Shown: one piece after another, positions 32,511 to 41,037 of the stretch
Position numbering within the stretch: position 1 is the stretch's first letter
Layout of the letters: each line of letters starts with the position of its first letter
Assembly: GCA_963706645.1 (NCBI GenBank)
Contig: CAVPNR010000018.1
Location: 151,818 to 215,817 of the forward strand
Direction of reading: 5' to 3'
Origin: an uncultured Acidobacteriaceae bacterium
GTDB lineage: Bacteria; Acidobacteriota; Terriglobia; Terriglobales; Acidobacteriaceae
Length of the DNA: 64,000 bases
The notes under the pieces: generated by a model
The model's database searches: none
What the model saw: only the letters and a program-made list of their open reading frames with translations
What the model was told of the DNA's origin: nothing
Position numbers and translations under genes: made by a program

Positions 32511-33512
32511 ATGGAAGCTTTAACTCGTCTCGTTGCAGAATCCCTCGCGCGCCACGGTTTCGATCGTCCCCTGGACTATCGTCGCCTTCACTGGTCACGC
32601 TGGTTCCGTTGCGACTCCCACCACAGTCTCCTCGCCGTCCCCAGCAAACCCGGCGTCTTCGCCGTCGCCGAAGAAGTCATGGACTTCGGGCCGAATGTGG
32701 AACAACGGCCCTTTCGCGCAATGACAGATGTGAAGGAGCGCTTCAGCGCCACGACGGTGGTGGAAGAGCAGCCCCTTAGCCCGACGACTCGGGTGGAAGA
32801 GCGGCGCTTCAGCGCCGCGTCAGGCAGCCACTCTAATCCGGCTTTAGCCGCTGCGGGAATCTCTCCGGAAGCCGAAAGCTGGAAGCCGGAAGCCCCACAG
32901 CGCCGCCGCATGCTCGCCGTTACCCAATTCTTCGAAGACGACGACATGGCCTTCGTCCTCGACCGCATGCTCTCGCGCCCCAATTCCATGAGCGCTCGCT
33001 TGGCCTCCGGCCGCTACTTCGTCCGCTTCGTCGTCATCGAAGACCAGACCCAGCGCCGCAGCATTTGCAGCGCCCTGAATCAATGGATGGTCTCCGCCTC
33101 CGAAAAAGCCACCGGCATCGGCGCCCATTTCGCCACCTCCCTTGAACTCACCCCGGCCACCGAATACAACCCTCAAGCCGATGAGAGACAGCAATCCCTT
33201 TTCGCGAACGAAGAGAATCTGGCGCGTACGCCCTCACCCGCGACTGCCGTCGCCACCGATGCGCATGCGGCGACGGCCGCTAAGCCTGCCCTGAGCGGAG
33301 TCGAAGGGGCCGTCTCGCGAAGCGAAGCGAGCCGCCCAGTGGAAGAGCGGCGCTTTAGCGCCGCGTCAAGCGCCTCGCAGGAATCCGCGGCTTCAGCCGC
33401 TGAGGTTCACCGCGTGCCCGCCGCCGTTTCACCCATTCCGACGACCCCGCACCTACACTCCGGAGCCGCCACCAACATTCACTGTCCCTCCCCCTTCCCC
33501 TCCGGCTTCTAG
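32511..33512 (+). CDS. Hypothetical protein whose reading frame runs through several REP-type repeats
   Basis: 333-aa ORF. Segments such as 'VEERRFSAAS' (twice), 'PEAESWKPEA' and 'PALSGVEGAV' are translations of repeat families seen in intergenic DNA elsewhere in the window. Confidence 0.4.
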   Translation: MEALTRLVAESLARHGFDRPLDYRRLHWSRWFRCDSHHSLLAVPSKPGVFAVAEEVMDFGPNVEQRPFRAMTDVKERFSATTVVEEQPLSPTTRVEERRFSAASGSHSNPALAAAGISPEAESWKPEAPQRRRMLAVTQFFEDDDMAFVLDRMLSRPNSMSARLASGRYFVRFVVIEDQTQRRSICSALNQWMVSASEKATGIGAHFATSLELTPATEYNPQADERQQSLFANEENLARTPSPATAVATDAHAATAAKPALSGVEGAVSRSEASRPVEERRFSAASSASQESAASAAEVHRVPAAVSPIPTTPHLHSGAATNIHCPSPFPSGF

Positions 33513-36800: not shown

Positions 36801-36930
36801 CGCCGACGCGCTCTCCAGCATGGTCGACATGGGAGACGCCCCCAGTTGCAGCTTCTGCGGCAGCATCATGACCCGCAACGGCAGCTGCTATCGCTGCGGA
36901 AGCTGCGGCAGCACCAGCGGCTGCAGCTAG
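33874..36930 (+). CDS. nrdJ: Vitamin B12-dependent (class II) ribonucleotide reductase
   Basis: The ATG at 33874 is preceded by GGAGAG. 'NSPVWFN', 'SACF', 'NPCSEYMFLDDSACNLASLNL' and 'ISKTVNLP' are present, with a C-terminal zinc ribbon CSFC...CYRC. Confidence 0.92.
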   Translation: MAELKTATETTVPAAPSVPAKKKSSGLSFRRFFTKPGVSPYNEVEWDLRLAQITDAQGNIIFEQKDVEVPKDWSMTATNIVASKYLHGKIGTPERETGVRQLVARVAETIRDWGMAQGYFKTADDGATFHDELVHILVRQYAAFNSPVWFNVGCDRIEPNSDGRNWHWNPQTQQVEFGVTGYSKPQCSACFINSVKDSLDSILTLAKTEGMLFKWGSGTGTNLSPLRGSTETLSGGGTASGPLSFMKGFDAFAGVIKSGGKTRRAAKMVILNVDHPDIIEFIECKQKEEAKAHALVSMGYDGSHPDSDAYSSIFFQNANNSVRVTDDFMYAVVRDTDFSTRTVTDGSVVKTYKAKELLRKISEATWHCGDPGMQYDTTVNRWHTSKNTARINASNPCSEYMFLDDSACNLASLNLLKFAPNGTFDVEAYRHAVDVLITAQEILVDNAGYPTEHIMRNSHDYRPLGLGYANLGALLMAAGLPYDSDAGRDYASCVTAIMCGEAYLQSSRIAEQCEPLVPATEATKKNLSETNLGASIAHVGTAASAVQRSEASASAAQTMPGGACPGWYINREPFLDVIRMHRASVNGINKANVPTTIYEASKQCWDEALAHGEKHGYRNSQVTVLAPTGTIGFMMDCDTTGIEPDLALIKYKKLVGGGMIKIVNNTVPTALFKLGYSHDQADAIVSYIDATGTIEGAPHIKDEHLAVFDCSFKPAKGTRSIAYMGHLRMMAAAQPFISGAISKTVNLPENASVEDIAEAYLQAWKLGLKAVAVYRDGCKKSQPLSAAGTKTANSTKDDARIAAAQHVEEEDMNAPPRAVRHRLQEERASITHKFKIGDHEGYITVGLYPNGEPGELFITMAKEGSTVSGLMDSFALTTSIALQHGVPLRLLCEKFAHTRFEPSGWSGNPDLGYAKSITDYIFRWLQLRFLTGQQQLLFDNLRLRPAGGAPPEAGDVNVASSPEARSRKAEAGPVHAADALSSMVDMGDAPSCSFCGSIMTRNGSCYRCGSCGSTSGCS
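35486..35537 (+). repeat. REP-like element, family A, embedded in-frame in nrdJ
   Basis: atgtggggacggccgcctcggccgtccagcgaagcgaagcgagcgcctcggc is homologous to the intergenic copies. It is translated as HVGTAASAVQRSEASASA. Confidence 0.75.
36821..36930 (+). repeat. Direct repeat DR1 (functional 3' end of nrdJ)
   Basis: 110 nt, matching 37483..37592 at 100/110 positions without indels (hand alignment). Confidence 0.9.
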
Positions 36931-36995
36931 AATCGTGTTTCATTATGTGGGGCGGGCGCCCTCGCCCGCCCGCTCTTTGCTAGCGGAACTGCCGC

Positions 36996-37229
36996 ATGCA
37001 CTTCAAGGTCGTCGGACCCATCGAGAATGTGGAGCTGATCGCATCCGGCAAAGCGATCCGCGAGCGCAAGCGGCTTTGGAAGGCGTATGGCAAGGGACGC
37101 TGGCGGAAACTGAAGGGCAACGCCGAGGTAGAGTTTCCCGATGGTACGATGTGCCATGCGGAAATCCACTGGTACGAAGCCCACGGGATTGGGGCGAAAG
37201 AGCACAAGATCAAGCGAATCGTTGAATGA
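36996..37229 (+). CDS. Hypothetical 77-aa protein, first gene of a two-gene cassette
   Basis: ATG start: MHFKVVGPIENVELIASGKAIRERKRLWKAYGKGRWRKLKGNAEVEFPDGTMCHAEIHWYEAHGIGAKEHKIKRIVE. No repeat-derived sequence and a globular composition. Confidence 0.6.
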   Translation: MHFKVVGPIENVELIASGKAIRERKRLWKAYGKGRWRKLKGNAEVEFPDGTMCHAEIHWYEAHGIGAKEHKIKRIVE

Positions 37230-37245
37230 CCTAAAGACGAGTGAT

Positions 37246-37473
37246 ATGAAACGCGAGGCACAATACGTTATTTGCGTGGGGAACAAGGGTTACCCGGCTT
37301 CGCTGGAGTTGCGCAAGATCTATCAGATCATTCCGGACACGGTCGCAGCCAGACTTCATCAAATTCGCGTCATTGATGAGTCTGGCGAAGACTATTTGTA
37401 CCCGGAAGACTATTTCGTCCCTGTGCAGTTGCCGCAGGCTGTCGAGCGAGCTGTGCGACGGGCGACCGCATAA
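37246..37473 (+). CDS. Hypothetical 75-aa protein, second gene of the cassette
   Basis: The ATG at 37246 is 16 nt after the previous stop: MKREAQYVICVGNKGYPASLELRKIYQIIPDTVAARLHQIRVIDESGEDYLYPEDYFVPVQLPQAVERAVRRATA. Confidence 0.6.
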   Translation: MKREAQYVICVGNKGYPASLELRKIYQIIPDTVAARLHQIRVIDESGEDYLYPEDYFVPVQLPQAVERAVRRATA

Positions 37474-37482
37474 GTCCGGAGT

Positions 37483-37592
37483 TGGTCGACATGGGCGACG
37501 CCCCCAGTTGCAGCTTCTGCGGCGTCATCATGACCCGCAACGGCAGCTGCTATAGATGCATGAGCCGCGGCAGCACCAGCGGATGCAGCTAG
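37483..37592 (+). pseudogene. Direct repeat DR2: displaced, diverged copy of the nrdJ 3' end
   Basis: It would read VDMGDAPSCSFCGVIMTRNGSCYRCMSRGSTSGCS*, against VDMGDAPSCSFCGSIMTRNGSCYRCGSCGSTSGCS* in nrdJ. It is not connected to any upstream nrdJ-like frame. Confidence 0.85.
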
Positions 37593-37800
37593 ATTTCCAA
37601 CGCTTTGTCATCCCGAGGGAGCGCGTACTTTGCGCGAGTCGAGGGACCTGCTGTTTAGGTTTCGTGGAAGGGCACGGCTTCAGCCGTGCCGTAACAAAAA
37701 CAAACCTCGACGGCTTTAGCCGCTGAGGCCAATAAGTCGTCGGGTGGACGCAAGCTGTGAAGGGGGCACGGCAAACGTGGCCCCTTGTTTTATTTGCCAC

Positions 37801-39912
37801 ATGTTGAATGCAGACGATTCCGAAAGCGTGCTCGCGATGCGCTCGCTCGCGAGTGTGGCAGCATCAGGGAGCAGACCCATCGTTTTCTGGGTGGGAGCCG
37901 GAGCAAGCAAATGGCTTGGGTACCCATTGTGGAAGGACTTGTCTCTCCAACTACGTAAGGCGTTTTTTCAGCGCGTTTCCGGTTTCGACAACCATCAAGC
38001 GGAGAGGCTACTCAACGCAGAACGGTACCCGGAATTATTTCAGATTTGCCGAAATCTCGACAGTGGACATTACAACAAGTTTCTTGTCGATATCTTCAAA
38101 CCAAGAGTTCAGGATGGGCCTTACGGGACATTTGTTGAACTTCTCAGGGAAATCAACCCTCTGTTCGTCGTGACGACGAACGTAGATGAGGCCCTCGAAA
38201 AGAGCCTCCCCGCGGCGGTGACGGTACAAAGAACAGATCTCAGTAGATGCGTAGACTTTCTGCAAACAAAGACGCCGTTCGTGGCTAAGCTGCATGGATC
38301 GATCAGTTCGGTGCGCTCGATGGTCTTTACAACCGAGGACTATAGCGAACTGGTTTCAGATCCTCATTACATTCAGTCGCTGAAATACATCTTCACGGGA
38401 TGCACGGTCGTCTTCTTAGCATATGGAGTTCGTGATTCCTACGTCGTCAGTCTTCTGCGAGACAACGTAGCGCACATGGAGCTATTTGGCGCGGGGCCTC
38501 ATTTTGTTGTTACTAACGGCCCCGCGCCCGTCCCATCGCTTCGTAGAATCCGCTATCTAGTTAAGGTCAAACCTGACCACAGCGCAGCGTTAAATGTATT
38601 GGCTCACATAGCTCAGTCTGCAACCCGTACTGCTCCCACAACACTCGATGTTCAAGGGCCGAACTCAACGAGTCAAGATGGGGCGAAGGCGCCCGGACGC
38701 GTCCCGCCTGGAAAAACGGCTTACTACATCACCGATCTATTGCCAGGAGATTTTCAAGAAATTACGGCTGGCAGGGAGGGGACCGAAATAGAAGCATCAT
38801 TTGGTCTCGGTTTCACGGCAGAGGAAATGCCTTTCACTGCGTCCACGGCTCTACATGATATTACGGTCGCTCTCATCTGCTTCGACTACGTCTACCTTCC
38901 GGCAGGAGCCTTAGGGCTGATTTTTACACTGGTGGGCGAACCCCTTTTTCGCGAGCTCATAACGGGAGACGTCATCCGCTTCATACACGACATAACCAGA
39001 CTTGGTGTTTTCTTTAGTCCTCACCAGGCGATGGGGTCCCTCGGAAACGCCACCGCACGCTCGAAAGATGGAGCATCTGCACGACCCCTTTCGGATGTAA
39101 TTCGAAGGTCCTTTTCTCCTATCGCGGGAAAAGAAGTGGAGGCGGAGAAGCTATTTTCGGACATCGAGCGGCGGACCTGTGTTTATCGAAAGGCAGACGA
39201 GATAGAATTCACCTCACTCGTCCGTGGCGCTCTACTGATGCCTGCAGTATCGACGTTACTAGGAATCGGGGACTGCATCTTACCCACACAAGTGCCTCGC
39301 TGGCTGAGATACCCCTATCTGAGACTTGGCCACCTGGTACAGACCGCGGTGTTGTGTGGCGAATATGGAATCCAGGCTGCAAAGGTTTCGTTCGGTGGCA
39401 TCCAGCTAACAAACGCGGCGTTTGGGGTGGAGCCCACAGGGAATTCCGCGGATCACCTAGCGAGCTATGTAACGGCAGGTGCGTACAATGCGGATCTAGG
39501 TGCTCTAGTGCTACAGAACCCCCCCATCGTAAAGCAGATTCTGCATTTTCGGGACTCGTCGGCAGGTCAAGCATTTCGGGCGGAGATTCGGCAGGTTTTG
39601 GCCGCAGAGAATGGACCTGAATTCAACGCTTCGGTAAACGCTGGTTTGTCACGAGCAATCCCAGTTACCATTCTCCAACAGGCCCGAGACAAGATGCTAA
39701 CCCTAATGACGGAAAGCACCCGCGCGACCGTGGTGCCTGCGGTGTGGGGAAATGTTCTTTATTCCGACTCAGTCACGAAGCGATGGCGTGACAGGAGCGC
39801 GAAAATGCTTGTGGAGTTGTGCCAATCGAGGAACATAACGAAAGACGATCCCTGCATCTGTGGCTCTGGAGAAAAATTGCGGCTGTGCTGCATGGCGCCA
39901 CTTCGCCACTGA
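37801..39912 (+). CDS. SIR2-like (SIR2_2/ThsA-type) domain protein with unassigned C-terminal region and SEC-C motif
   Basis: The ORF is open from 37744 and ATG 37801 is the likely start. 'VFWVGAGASKWLGYPLW', 'FVVTTNVDEALE' and 'AKLHGSI' occur in SIR2_2 order. The C-terminal 'CICGSGEKLRLCC' is a SEC-C motif. Confidence 0.7.
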   Translation: MLNADDSESVLAMRSLASVAASGSRPIVFWVGAGASKWLGYPLWKDLSLQLRKAFFQRVSGFDNHQAERLLNAERYPELFQICRNLDSGHYNKFLVDIFKPRVQDGPYGTFVELLREINPLFVVTTNVDEALEKSLPAAVTVQRTDLSRCVDFLQTKTPFVAKLHGSISSVRSMVFTTEDYSELVSDPHYIQSLKYIFTGCTVVFLAYGVRDSYVVSLLRDNVAHMELFGAGPHFVVTNGPAPVPSLRRIRYLVKVKPDHSAALNVLAHIAQSATRTAPTTLDVQGPNSTSQDGAKAPGRVPPGKTAYYITDLLPGDFQEITAGREGTEIEASFGLGFTAEEMPFTASTALHDITVALICFDYVYLPAGALGLIFTLVGEPLFRELITGDVIRFIHDITRLGVFFSPHQAMGSLGNATARSKDGASARPLSDVIRRSFSPIAGKEVEAEKLFSDIERRTCVYRKADEIEFTSLVRGALLMPAVSTLLGIGDCILPTQVPRWLRYPYLRLGHLVQTAVLCGEYGIQAAKVSFGGIQLTNAAFGVEPTGNSADHLASYVTAGAYNADLGALVLQNPPIVKQILHFRDSSAGQAFRAEIRQVLAAENGPEFNASVNAGLSRAIPVTILQQARDKMLTLMTESTRATVVPAVWGNVLYSDSVTKRWRDRSAKMLVELCQSRNITKDDPCICGSGEKLRLCCMAPLRH

Positions 39913-40410
39913 GCGAGGCGGGGCTCAGCCTTTTGGTTTTGATTTCCTCTCCAACACATGGCTGCGGCGTACCCCGTCTCTTCGACTGCGCTCAGGGCAG
40001 GCTCTTGCGTTCTTTGCAAGGGCGGGTAGCGATGCGGCCGATGGCTTTTGTTTCGAACTCACGTGGCGTTTCTGCCGTCCCTCCGGGACTCGGTTCCATT
40101 TCCCTGGCACTGACCCAGGACTGAAGTCCTGGGCTATTTTTGTTGCGTCGCTCCGCGACTGGGTTTCCCTAGCGGCTGAAGCCGACCTTCGATTCTCGCG
40201 TTATTGGCACGGCTGAAGCCGAGCCCTTCCCTGTCGTCTCCCCAAGCAGTTTTCCACAGAATCTTGGAGTTTTCCTCAGGCGGAGTATGTGACGGATGAC
40301 CTTTACTGAGGATTCTAGAACTGGAATAGTCGGGCTGGGAGCGCGGAAAGCGAGTTCCTCGCTCTGACCAACCAAGCCGAAGGATCGAAGGGGAAAGAAT
40401 CACGAGCAAG

Positions 40411-41037
40411 ATGAGCCAGGGAATCGAAAATCCGGGACGTAACTCCTTATTCCGCAATATTTTACCCGCAAGTCCTTATGGCTCAAGATTTTGGGCATAC
40501 CTCGACCCATATCAACCCCGCAAGTTACAGAAAGGAAAGATTTTAGCTGAGGGGCGTAAAAAAAGTGAGAGGCCCTCAAGCTGGCATCGCCACTGCAAGG
40601 AGCGCGGGGAGTGGGCGGAGCTTTGTTTTATGACGCTGGCCAAGGGAATGAGTTTGGGGAGTGTTGAAGCCGTTTGGGGAGTCGGGACGGTATGACGTGG
40701 CGGTGGAGAATGGAGGTCCGATCTGGCGGGTGCAGGTGAAGTCGACGATCTATTGCCGGCGCGGGAATGAGTACAGCTTGAATGTGATGGGGCCGGGGAG
40801 GAAGCAATATAAGAAAGGCACGGTGGACTTTTTTGCGGTGTGGGTGATTCCGGAGGAGGAGTGGTACATCATTCCGTATGCGGCGATGGGGAAGAAGAAG
40901 ACGCTGTGCATTTCACGGCGGGGAGCGAGCGGGCGAAGTGGGCGCGGTATCGGGAGGCTTGGGATCTGTTGAAGGTGGTGGAGATTCGGGCTTGTGTGGA
41001 TCCGTTGTATGAGGAGGAGATTTCGGAATGTGATTGA
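40411..41037 (+). pseudogene. PD-(D/E)XK endonuclease (group-I-intron-associated type), disrupted by two frameshifts
   Basis: Three consecutive frames read '...KERGEWAELCFMTLAKGMSLG', then 'LKPFGESGRYDVAVENGGPIWRVQVKST...WYIIPYAAMGKKKT', then 'HFTAGSERAKWARYREAWDLLKVV'. Joined, they give one PD..(D/E)XK-type protein. The true 5' limit is uncertain. Confidence 0.55.

What the first reader, a model, noticed from the sequence alone, without database searches (positions are those of the whole stretch)
37744..39912. Orphan SIR2-like protein with a roughly 430-aa unassigned region and a SEC-C zinc tail: candidate single-gene defence system
Seen: the first 270 aa or so carry, in the order expected for the SIR2_2/ThsA-type fold, 'VFWVGAGASKWLGYPLW' (Gly-rich NAD loop), 'FVVTTNVDEALE' (catalytic Asn block) and 'AKLHGSI' (catalytic His). 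The last 13 coded residues before 'MAPLRH', 'CICGSGEKLRLCC', fit the SEC-C motif CxCGSGxKxxxCC. Residues about 290-700 match nothing I recognise. By eye the gene is A/T-richer than nrdJ and purB. It is bracketed by REP clusters and shares the nrdJ-purB gap with a displaced nrdJ 3' copy, a two-gene cassette and a decayed endonuclease gene. Established: SIR2-family NAD+ hydrolases are effectors in Thoeris (ThsA), DSR1/DSR2, SIR2-HerA and SIR2-pAgo systems. Inference: this is a stand-alone sensor-effector that depletes NAD+ on infection. As far as I can tell, the architecture (SIR2 + novel domain + SEC-C) does not correspond to any named system.
Basis: partly seen in the sequence, partly recalled or inferred. 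Interest (0 to 1): 0.8.

Follow-up and report, generated by a model that had tools for sequence, protein, structure and literature searches.

The report
Orphan SIR2 enzyme with novel domain
This gene encodes a probable NAD-destroying SIR2 enzyme fused to a large domain of unknown fold and a small zinc-binding tail. It belongs to a horizontally mobile, uncharacterised family that most likely acts as a one-gene anti-phage suicide switch, though this has not been tested.

Summary
The ORF at 37744-39912 is real, with the likely start at ATG 37801 (703 aa). It passes Pfam cut-offs for SIR2_2 and SEC-C. The Gly-loop, catalytic Asn127 and His165, and all four SEC-C cysteines are invariant in 41 homologues. 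His165 aligns with DSR2 His171.

Residues 298-680 model confidently (pTM 0.83) but match nothing in PDB, BFVD or Pfam. A profile search of 1.84 billion proteins finds this domain only in the same ~700-aa architecture.

The family has about 300 clusters at 50% identity. It is mostly in Acidobacteriota and patchy in at least 10 other phyla. No partner gene is conserved. The gene is AT-richer than its flanks in 59 of 59 genomes, is under purifying selection (dN/dS 0.1-0.24), and shows cross-phylum transfer. Saturated, swapped alleles sit between near-identical flanks.

Adjacency to nrdJ is a Terriglobia-specific hotspot, not a functional link.

Best reading: a stand-alone SIR2 NADase abortive-infection protein with a new sensor domain. 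This is a new variant of the DSR1/DSR2 kind and a member of no named system. Defence activity and NAD+ depletion are inferred only.

The parts
37801..39912 (+). Coding sequence of the SIR2-CTD-SEC-C protein (703 aa, ATG to TGA). The maximal ORF extends upstream to GTG 37744.
   Evidence: ORF list. The N-termini of 41 homologues coincide at M1. P0001 is 100% identical and 703 aa.
37801..38625 (+). N-terminal SIR2 (SIR2_2, DSR2/ThsA-type) domain, aa 1-275
   Evidence: Pfam PF13289 E 6.8e-17. PDB profile search: DSR2 E 1.1e-13, KomC, ThsA. Foldseek TMt 0.66-0.71 to the DSR2 and KomC SIR2 domains.
37882..37914 (+). Gly-rich NAD-binding loop VFWVGAGASKW (W30, G32, G34 invariant)
   Evidence: Alignment A1.
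38173..38190 (+). TTNVDE block with invariant T126 and N127 (the catalytic Asn; aligns with DSR2 N133)
   Evidence: A1 invariant columns. HMMER alignment to DSR2.
38287..38301 (+). KLHGS block with invariant K163, H165 and G166. H165 aligns with DSR2 H171, the residue mutated in the inactive DSR2(H171A) structures.
   Evidence: alignment, counted by hand. PDB entry titles.
38626..38691 (+). Low-confidence, poorly conserved linker (aa 276-297)
   Evidence: pLDDT below 50 for residues 276-297. Gappy, variable columns.
38692..39840 (+). C-terminal domain of unknown fold (aa 298-680): an alpha/beta subdomain followed by a helical subdomain. Conserved motifs include GLGF, HDxxVGLICFD, PRWLxFPxLR, FRxSxxG and SVNAGL.
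   Evidence: AF2 pTM 0.83. No PDB match (best E 0.046, TM 0.17). No BFVD match. No Pfam family in 17 members. No PDB sequence match. Found only in this architecture.
39853..39891 (+). SEC-C / SecA-like metal-binding knuckle CICGSGEKLRLCC (C685, C687, C696, C697 invariant)
   Evidence: Pfam PF02810 in 17 of 17 members. PDB profile hits to YchJ-C, 2i9w and the SecA MBD. Invariant columns.
37760..37795 (+). GC-rich hairpin plus T-run (terminator-like), ending 14 nt before the ATG. Conserved with covarying stems in the nrdJ-linked clade only.
37666..37690 (.). Palindromic REP-like element upstream of the gene
40173..40230 (.). Two REP-like palindromes downstream of the gene (cores at 40173-40184 and 40210-40221)
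36821..37593 (+). Context: the duplicated nrdJ 3' end (36821-36931 and 37483-37593, 91%) brackets an inserted two-ORF cassette (36996-37229, 37237-37473). This marks the nrdJ 3' end as an integration site.
40582..40974 (+). Context: PDDEXK_5 endonuclease pseudogene with two frameshifts. It is intact in relatives L011 and L020.

Best explanation
This is a stand-alone, single-polypeptide abortive-infection protein. The N-terminal SIR2 domain is a DSR2/ThsA-type NAD+ glycohydrolase (catalytic Asn127 and His165) and is kept inactive in uninfected cells. The ~380-aa C-terminal domain, a fold not yet described and found only in this family, is the regulatory or sensor module. When it binds an infection-derived trigger, it is inferred to release or oligomerise the SIR2 domain. 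NAD+ is then depleted and the infected cell stops growing before phage are released. The invariant C-terminal SEC-C metal knuckle is inferred to be either a docking module (SecA's equivalent binds SecB and ribosomes) or an oligomerisation or redox switch (as in YchJ). Shown here: domain identities, conservation of catalytic and metal-binding residues, novelty and exclusivity of the C-terminal domain, absence of a partner gene, purifying selection, and horizontal mobility. Inferred: NADase activity, the trigger, the activation mechanism, and the anti-phage role.
For: SIR2_2 and SEC-C pass Pfam cut-offs. The Gly loop, T126/N127, K163/H165/G166 and four Cys are invariant in 41 homologues sharing 30-70% identity. 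The closest solved relatives of the SIR2 domain are all anti-phage NADases: DSR2 E 1e-13, KomC, ThsA, SPARSA and Avs5. PADLOC's best hits are Dsr1, LmuA, PDC-S25 and ThsA, over the SIR2 region only. The full-length model is compact (pTM 0.78), which is consistent with the two domains packing together. No neighbour is conserved across 69 loci. 148 nearest neighbours fall into 134 Pfam families, none seen more than 3 times. Defence and TA neighbours occur: AbiEi x2, Uma2/PDC-S03 x2, PIN x2, DRT, HEC-05, type I R-M. Transposases or integrases lie next to the gene in L009, L013, L095 and L097, and there is a second SIR2-TPR gene in L096. The gene is AT-richer than its flanks in 59 of 59 genomes, by 7.1 points on average. 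Both domains have dN/dS 0.09-0.24. Alleles from Latescibacterota and Gemmatimonadota are 78% identical with dS 0.6, while the within-Acidobacteriota median is 37%. Between the window and L016 the SIR2 ORF is 67.6% identical in DNA with saturated pS 0.77, while the flanks are 87-95% identical and nrdJ pS is 0.41. N-terminal remnants in L091 and L093 show loss. SEC-C-like tails also match the C-terminal ends of the PADLOC E2, E1-E2 and PDC-S12 models.
Against: There are no experimental data for any family member. The family is absent from the phage and plasmid collections and from PADLOC and NCBIfam as a full-length model. Known defence genes make up only a small share of the nearest neighbours, and I had no matched background rate. 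The C-terminal domain is as conserved as the SIR2 domain (0.37 vs 0.41 mean pairwise identity). That is unlike a sensor in a fast arms race with phage proteins and fits better a conserved ligand such as a small molecule or a conserved host or phage component. In the window's clade the gene sits at a fixed site after a housekeeping gene.
Confidence: 0.6

Rival explanations
1. It is the effector half of a system whose other parts are encoded elsewhere. The C-terminal domain binds a small-molecule signal made by an unlinked synthase, as ThsA senses ThsB's cADPR isomer or KomC senses dITP, rather than sensing the phage directly.
For: The C-terminal domain is as conserved as the catalytic domain, as expected for a pocket that binds a fixed ligand. 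It has invariant polar residues: E342, D353, D362, R508, R584, R593. The nearest SIR2 relatives include the ligand-activated ThsA and KomC.
Against: No synthase-like or any other gene co-occurs in the flanks (+/-6 kb across 69 loci in the clustering; 10-kb flanks held for each locus). Horizontally mobile single genes that depend on an unlinked partner are rarely functional after transfer, yet this gene crosses phyla and stays under purifying selection. There is no SLOG, CARF, SAVED or other known signal-binding fold.
Confidence: 0.12
2. The SIR2 domain is not a bulk NADase. It is a protein- or nucleic-acid-directed ADP-ribosyltransferase or deacylase. The gene is a toxin or conflict effector (addiction module, anti-plasmid, inter-element competition) rather than an anti-phage abortive-infection system.
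For: SIR2 folds support several NAD-consuming chemistries, and sequence alone cannot tell them apart. The gene lies among mobile elements and TA genes. It is compositionally foreign.
Against: Its closest sequence and structure relatives are all NAD+-depleting defence effectors. No adjacent antitoxin-like small gene is conserved. It is absent from sequenced plasmids and phages.
Confidence: 0.12
3. It is a housekeeping or regulatory partner of ribonucleotide reductase, for example an NAD-dependent modifier or regulator of dNTP synthesis, co-expressed with nrdJ.
For: The gene lies directly downstream of nrdJ on the same strand in the window, in 12 GTDB Terriglobia loci, in further metagenome loci, and once after a class I nrdB-nrdA operon (L013/L015, a 36% allele). 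In the nrdJ clade the ATG sits 5-40 nt after a terminator-like hairpin, leaving no obvious room for its own promoter, so expression may depend on read-through from nrdJ.
Against: Of the 69 loci clustered (66 GTDB genome loci plus three metagenome contigs), 56 have no RNR gene within 6 kb. Only 5 of 80 metagenome loci have one, and all of those are close relatives. nrdJ-linked alleles are saturated at synonymous sites while nrdJ is not, so alleles were swapped in rather than co-inherited. GC3 is 0.55 against 0.76 for nrdJ. The nrdJ 3' end is duplicated around an unrelated cassette, which marks it as an integration site. The class I case has GC 44.5% against 62% in its flanks, with a Y1 transposase next door.
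Confidence: 0.05

Closest known systems
DSR2 (defence-associated sirtuin 2, Bacillus subtilis)
   Same: A single polypeptide with an N-terminal SIR2 NADase domain and a large C-terminal sensor, and no partner gene. It is the best sequence match for the SIR2 domain (E 1.1e-13), with aligned catalytic Asn and His and TMt about 0.7.
   Different: DSR2 is about 1000 aa, with a MID domain and an alpha-solenoid CTD that binds the phage tail tube. Here the C-terminal region is about 380 aa of mixed alpha/beta plus helices with no structural match to DSR2. The NCBIfam Dsr2 score is 26 bits against a cut-off of 1400. DSR2 has no SEC-C tail.
DSR1
   Same: A single-gene SIR2 defence protein and the best PADLOC hit (E 1.1e-14) over the SIR2 region.
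   Different: The match covers only profile positions 25-210 of 1227. The remaining ~1000 positions of Dsr1 have no counterpart here.
Thoeris ThsA (SIR2-SLOG)
   Same: A SIR2 NADase activated through a C-terminal regulatory domain, with SIR2 sequence and structure similarity.
   Different: No SLOG/STALD domain and no ThsB/TIR gene nearby.
KomC (Kongming), SIR2-HerA, SPARSA and Lamassu LmuA-SIR2 effectors
   Same: Related SIR2 effector folds.
   Different: All of these need adjacent partner genes (KomA/B, HerA, a short pAgo, LmuB). None is present in the window or recurrent in homologous loci.
SecA MBD / YchJ / YecA SEC-C motifs; Rugutis (lactococcal SEC-C defence protein)
   Same: The same CXCX8CC metal knuckle (PMC6620043). 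Rugutis shows that a SEC-C-containing single protein can be anti-phage (PMC11381338).
   Different: Outside the ~20-residue knuckle there is no similarity. In Rugutis the motif is N-terminal, and that protein has no SIR2 domain.

Membership tests
SIR2_2 (PF13289) superfamily of DSR/ThsA-type sirtuin-like NADases | Significant match to the family profile | tested here: met
   62.3 bits against a cut-off of 24.5. All 119 homologues but one carry PF13289.
SIR2_2 (PF13289) superfamily of DSR/ThsA-type sirtuin-like NADases | Gly-rich NAD loop plus catalytic Asn and His in the aligned positions | tested here: met
   W30/G32/G34, N127 and H165 are invariant in 41 sequences. N127 and H165 align with DSR2 N133 and H171.
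SIR2_2 (PF13289) superfamily of DSR/ThsA-type sirtuin-like NADases | SIR2 Rossmann-type fold | tested here: met
   Foldseek E 1e-8 to 1e-10, TMt 0.66-0.71 to the DSR2 and KomC SIR2 domains.
SIR2_2 (PF13289) superfamily of DSR/ThsA-type sirtuin-like NADases | NAD+ glycohydrolase activity | not testable with these tools
   Needs a biochemical assay.
DSR2 | Full-length match (MID plus alpha-solenoid CTD, ~1000 aa) | tested here: not met
   NCBIfam NF041819 gives 26 bits against a cut-off of 1400, over aa 60-201 only. The C-terminal model has no PDB match although DSR2 structures are in the library.
DSR1 | Full-length match to the Dsr1 profile (1227 positions) | tested here: not met
   Only positions 25-210 matched.
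Thoeris (ThsA/ThsB) | SLOG/STALD ligand-binding domain on the SIR2 protein | tested here: not met
   The PADLOC ThsA match is restricted to the SIR2 part. No Pfam or fold match in aa 298-680.
Thoeris (ThsA/ThsB) | Adjacent TIR-domain ThsB gene | tested here: not met
   No such ORF between nrdJ and purB. No recurrent neighbour across 69 loci.
SIR2-HerA / SPARSA / Lamassu-SIR2 / Kongming | Adjacent HerA ATPase, short pAgo, LmuB SMC or KomA/KomB partner | tested here: not met
   None in the window. None among the recurrent or top neighbour families.
Avs5 (SIR2-STAND) | STAND NTPase domain with a Walker A motif | tested here: not met
   No NTPase family hit. The only GxxxxGKT-like string (GRVPPGKT, aa 299-306) lies in the low-confidence linker and is not conserved in homologues.
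SEC-C motif (PF02810) | CXCX8C(C/H) metal-binding knuckle passing the Pfam cut-off | tested here: met
   23.9 bits against 20.4. 17 of 17 members match. The four Cys are invariant. Metal binding itself was not tested.
Anti-phage defence gene (generic genomic criteria) | Enrichment next to known defence genes | tested here: inconclusive
   Among 148 nearest neighbours: AbiEi x2, PDC-S03 x2, PIN x2, DRT, HEC-05 and a type I R-M, plus single cases in L096 and L097. No matched background rate could be computed.
Anti-phage defence gene (generic genomic criteria) | Patchy distribution, horizontal transfer, presence/absence and allele turnover | tested here: met

The most novel reading that the evidence does not exclude
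The SEC-C knuckle docks this NADase on the ribosome or on SecB, as SecA's metal-binding domain does. The novel C-terminal domain would then inspect nascent or newly made phage proteins during translation, making this a ribosome-tethered immune sentinel with a new sensor fold. A weaker variant: the Cys4 knuckle is a redox or metal switch, as in YchJ, that couples infection-induced stress to NAD+ depletion.
Probability: 0.1. Interest if true: 0.85.

Novelty: new variant of a known kind. Interest (0 to 1): 0.55.

Why it matters
Single-protein SIR2 NADases such as DSR1 and DSR2 are model systems for how one polypeptide couples phage recognition to metabolic suicide. This family would add a third sensor architecture, with a fold absent from PDB, BFVD and Pfam, plus a SecA-type metal knuckle that has not been linked to SIR2 immunity. 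It comes from soil and peat Acidobacteriota and other poorly cultured phyla, which current defence catalogues barely sample. The sensor domain is unusually conserved, which suggests a conserved trigger that might be identifiable. The nrdJ-3' hotspot with swapped alleles provides a natural set of variants for comparative experiments.

Tried and rejected
1. A functional link to ribonucleotide reductase. This was prompted by adjacency to class II nrdJ in several loci and to class I nrdAB in L013/L015. Surveys of 79 genome loci and 80 metagenome loci show it is confined to one Terriglobia clade plus that single case. The alleles there were swapped in rather than co-inherited.
2. The 25-nt inverted repeat flanking the gene (37666-37690 / 40206-40230) as transposon ends. 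Each arm is itself a palindromic REP-like element, reported as both a direct and an inverted repeat, so it is not evidence for a mobile unit.
3. A Walker-A-like string GRVPPGKT (aa 299-306). It is not conserved and lies in the low-pLDDT linker.
4. The C-terminal domain as a hypervariable sensor. It is as conserved as the SIR2 domain, with the same dN/dS.
5. The hairpin before the ATG as a family-wide 5' regulatory element. It is locus-specific (16 of 109 against 9% in controls; 13 of the 16 are in the nrdJ clade), and its fold z-score is only -0.98.
6. Weak Foldseek hits of the C-terminal domain to TyrRS and pantothenate synthetase (HUP class). E 0.4-4, TM at most 0.2, not significant.
7. Occurrence on plasmids or phages. 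There are none; only distant matches limited to the SIR2 domain.
8. Literature search for SIR2 plus SEC-C. Nothing found.
9. Recurrent neighbour clusters (ABC transporter, MacB, SDR, histidine kinase, sigma factor, transposase). These are ubiquitous paralogous families, not partners.
Full report
OBSERVATION

The ORF 37744..39912 (+) exists (722 aa from GTG). Its identical database twin is 703 aa. All 41 aligned homologues begin at an invariant Met followed by LNADD, so the true start is most likely ATG 37801. Residue numbers below use the 703-aa protein.

Pfam gives SIR2_2 (E 6.8e-17, 62.3 bits against 24.5) and SEC-C (E 3.7e-5, 23.9 against 20.4). The tail CICGSGEKLRLCC fits the SecA metal-binding consensus CXCX8C(H/C) described in PMC6620043.

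Across 41 homologues sharing 30-70% identity, the following are invariant:
- the Gly loop (W30, G32, G34);
- T126/N127;
- K163/H165/G166;
- the four SEC-C cysteines (C685, C687, C696, C697).

In the HMMER alignment to DSR2, N127 and H165 align with DSR2 N133 and H171. H171 is the residue mutated in the inactive DSR2(H171A) structures (counted by hand).

LOCAL CONTEXT

- The gene is the lowest-GC 2.1-kb stretch of the window: 53.1% against a mean of 58.4% (sd 1.6). GC3 is 0.553 against 0.755 for nrdJ and 0.782 for purB.
- A 111-nt copy of the nrdJ 3' end (37483-37593, 91%) lies downstream of the real end (36821-36931). The two copies bracket two small ORFs with no family hits.
- That cassette is missing from the close relatives L016 and L031.
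- The PDDEXK_5 gene at 40582-40974 is broken by two frameshifts, while relatives keep it intact.
- The REP-like palindrome core CGGCTKMAGCCG occurs 4 times in the window against 0.04 expected, and three of those sites flank the gene.

THE UNASSIGNED REGION

A full-length AlphaFold2 model built from the 41-sequence alignment is confident (mean pLDDT 81.8, pTM 0.78), with a disordered linker at residues 276-297. Foldseek against PDB returns only SIR2-domain matches: ThsA, DSR2, KomC, Avs5 and SPARSA, with TMt 0.66-0.71 to the isolated DSR2 and KomC SIR2 domains.

A separate model of residues 298-703 is also confident (pTM 0.83). It has no significant neighbour anywhere:
- PDB structures: best E 0.046, TM 0.17;
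- the viral BFVD library;
- Pfam: in 17 diverse members, nothing but the SEC-C tail;
- PDB sequences by profile search: nothing but SEC-C knuckles from YchJ, 2i9w and SecA.

A profile of this region, searched against 1.84 billion representative proteins, finds 307 clusters (159 at E <= 1e-30). In every full-length hit visible (the best 150 are listed) the protein is about 700 aa and the domain starts near residue 290. The shorter hits look like metagenomic fragments. Among the hits I could see, the domain is therefore exclusive to this one architecture and is not shuffled onto other effectors.

FAMILY, DISTRIBUTION AND EVOLUTION

The family is mostly in Acidobacteriota (Terriglobia, Bryobacterales, Blastocatellia, Vicinamibacterales). 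It also occurs patchily in:
- Betaproteobacteria and Gammaproteobacteria, including the isolate Nitrosomonas oligotropha Nm75;
- Gemmatimonadota, Latescibacterota, Nitrospirota and Bacteroidota;
- Planctomycetota, Syntrophales, Sumerlaeota and Ignavibacteriales.

It is absent from the phage and plasmid collections.

Evidence on its evolution:
- In 59 of 59 genome loci the gene has lower GC than its flanks, by 7.1 points on average.
- Twelve close pairs give dN/dS of 0.09-0.24 in both the SIR2 and the C-terminal domain, so both are under purifying selection.
- Latescibacterota and Gemmatimonadota alleles are 71-78% identical with unsaturated dS of 0.6. The median identity within Acidobacteriota is only 37%. 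This shows recent inter-phylum transfer.
- Short N-terminal remnants in L091 and L093 (the latter right after nrdJ) document loss.
- The C-terminal domain is about as conserved as the SIR2 domain (mean pairwise identity 0.37 against 0.41). That argues against a hypervariable sensor and for a conserved trigger.

PARTNERS AND NEIGHBOURHOODS

I clustered all flank ORFs within 6 kb across 69 loci. No neighbour is shared family-wide. The recurrent clusters other than RNR are ubiquitous paralogous families: ABC and MacB transporters, SDR, histidine kinases, sigma factors and transposases.

The two nearest ORFs on each side in 37 diverse loci (148 ORFs) fall into 134 Pfam families, none seen more than three times. 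Among them are AbiEi (2), Uma2/PDC-S03 (2), PIN (2), a DRT reverse transcriptase, HEC-05 and a type I R-M.

Individual contexts add:
- DDE, Y1, IS1595 and Mutator transposases;
- an rve integrase with ORF6N;
- a second SIR2-TPR gene;
- an AAA_15/21 ATPase with DUF3226.

This fits a mobile, defence-like context. I could not compute a background rate, so I rate enrichment as inconclusive.

THE RNR ADJACENCY

The gene lies directly after nrdJ in the window, in P0004 and P0008, and in 12 GTDB Terriglobia loci. A 36% allele lies directly after a class I nrdB-nrdA operon. I took this seriously as a possible functional link. The evidence points the other way.
- Fifty-six of the 69 loci clustered (66 GTDB genome loci plus three metagenome contigs) have no RNR gene within 6 kb. 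In an independent sample of 80 metagenome loci only 5 do, and all of them are close relatives.
- Between the window and L016, nrdJ DNA is 86.8% identical, the upstream intergenic DNA 95% and the PDDEXK_5 region 94.6%. The SIR2 ORF alone is 67.6% identical. Its synonymous sites are saturated (pS 0.77) against pS 0.41 for nrdJ.
- The alleles are therefore older than the genomes that carry them. Divergent alleles have been exchanged at one locus.
- L097 carries a 36% allele upstream of the same panC-panB synteny that follows a 60% allele in L011.

Together with the duplicated nrdJ 3' end, this marks the nrdJ 3' flank as an integration and recombination hotspot in Terriglobia.

One detail remains open. 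In this clade a covarying GC hairpin plus T-run ends 5-40 nt before the SIR2 ATG (14 nt in the window). Expression may therefore depend on read-through of the nrdJ terminator. The feature is locus-specific, not family-wide.

MECHANISM

Shown:
- a catalytically intact DSR2/ThsA-type SIR2 domain;
- a conserved, family-exclusive C-terminal domain of unknown fold;
- an invariant Cys4 SEC-C knuckle;
- a stand-alone gene;
- purifying selection together with horizontal turnover.

Inferred: the SIR2 domain is an NADase held inactive until the C-terminal domain binds an infection cue. Activation, probably through oligomerisation as in DSR2, ThsA and KomC, depletes NAD+ and aborts the infection.

The SEC-C knuckle may dock the protein on ribosomes or SecB, as SecA's MBD does (PMC6620043; bioRxiv 10.1101/613315). 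Alternatively it may act as an oligomerisation or redox switch, as reported for YchJ's C-terminal cysteines (PMC13377102). SEC-C-like tails also match the ends of PADLOC's E2, E1-E2 and PDC-S12 models. The only validated SEC-C defence protein I found, Rugutis, is otherwise unrelated (PMC11381338).

COMPARISON AND NOVELTY

It works most like DSR1 and DSR2: one protein with an N-terminal SIR2 and a C-terminal sensor. It is a member of neither.
- DSR2: the NCBIfam Dsr2 score is 26 bits against a cut-off of 1400.
- DSR1: the PADLOC Dsr1 profile matches only positions 25-210 of 1227.
- Thoeris: it lacks the SLOG domain and ThsB.
- SIR2-HerA, SPARSA, Lamassu and Kongming: it lacks HerA, pAgo, LmuB and KomA/B.
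- Avs5: it has no STAND NTPase.

No paper in the searchable library describes SIR2 combined with SEC-C.

I classify it as a new variant of a known kind, with interest 0.55. The sensor fold and the zinc tail are new, and the family comes from under-sampled phyla. However, uncharacterised SIR2 fusions are common, and the defence function is untested.

Noticed in passing
window 36821-37593: The last 111 nt of nrdJ are duplicated (91%) around a 550-bp insert. The insert carries its own strong terminator hairpin (36950-36971) and two small ORFs (77 and 78 aa) with no hit in Pfam, NCBIfam or PHROGs. The insert is absent from L016 and L031. L016 has its own tandem duplication of the nrdJ 3' region. 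ORF2 has 72-75% DNA matches twice in L020. The nrdJ 3' end looks like a recurrent attachment site for a small mobile cassette.
   Followed up: partly
window 37760-37795; loci L002, L012, L016, L019, L021-L023, L098, L100, L101, L103, L107: A terminator-like GC hairpin plus T-run ends 5-40 nt before the SIR2 start codon in the nrdJ-linked clade, with compensatory stem changes between loci. No separate promoter is evident, which suggests low-level expression by read-through of the nrdJ terminator.
   Followed up: partly
L013 3267-10100, L015 (metagenome contigs, P0109): A 36%-identical allele (GC 44.5% against 62% in its flanks) sits 99 nt after a class I nrdB-nrdA operon and is followed by a Y1 (IS200/RAYT-type) transposase. 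This is a second, independent insertion downstream of an RNR gene of a different class. It may be coincidence, or RNR terminators may be favoured landing sites.
   Followed up: partly
window 40582-40974: A PDDEXK_5 (homing-endonuclease-like) gene is broken by two frameshifts (frame 1, then 2, then 1). Intact copies recur 2-4 kb downstream of the SIR2 gene in several Terriglobia loci (L011, L020, L022, L079).
   Followed up: yes
L097 3370-6343; L096 1-650: Other candidate defence genes lie beside family members. In L097 an IS1595 transposase is followed by an AAA_15/AAA_21 ATPase plus a DUF3226 protein. In L096 a separate 721-aa SIR2_2-TPR protein lies 9 kb upstream.
   Followed up: no
L069 vs L051/L056/L057: Latescibacterota and Gemmatimonadota (Longimicrobiales) genomes carry alleles that are 71-78% identical with dS of about 0.6, indicating recent transfer between phyla. 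The taxon labels are those of the MAG records.
   Followed up: partly
L091 10001-10126; L093 10001-10111: Only 37-42 N-terminal codons of the gene remain (49-74% identity). In L093 they lie directly after nrdJ. These are remnants of gene loss at the same hotspot.
   Followed up: no
window 32511-33512: A 333-aa ORF upstream of nrdJ has no Pfam or NCBIfam hit and contains repeated peptide strings (VEERRFSAAS twice, VVEEQPLSPTT). It overlaps one REP-like core (33388-33399). It may be a spurious ORF running across repeat elements rather than a gene.
   Followed up: no
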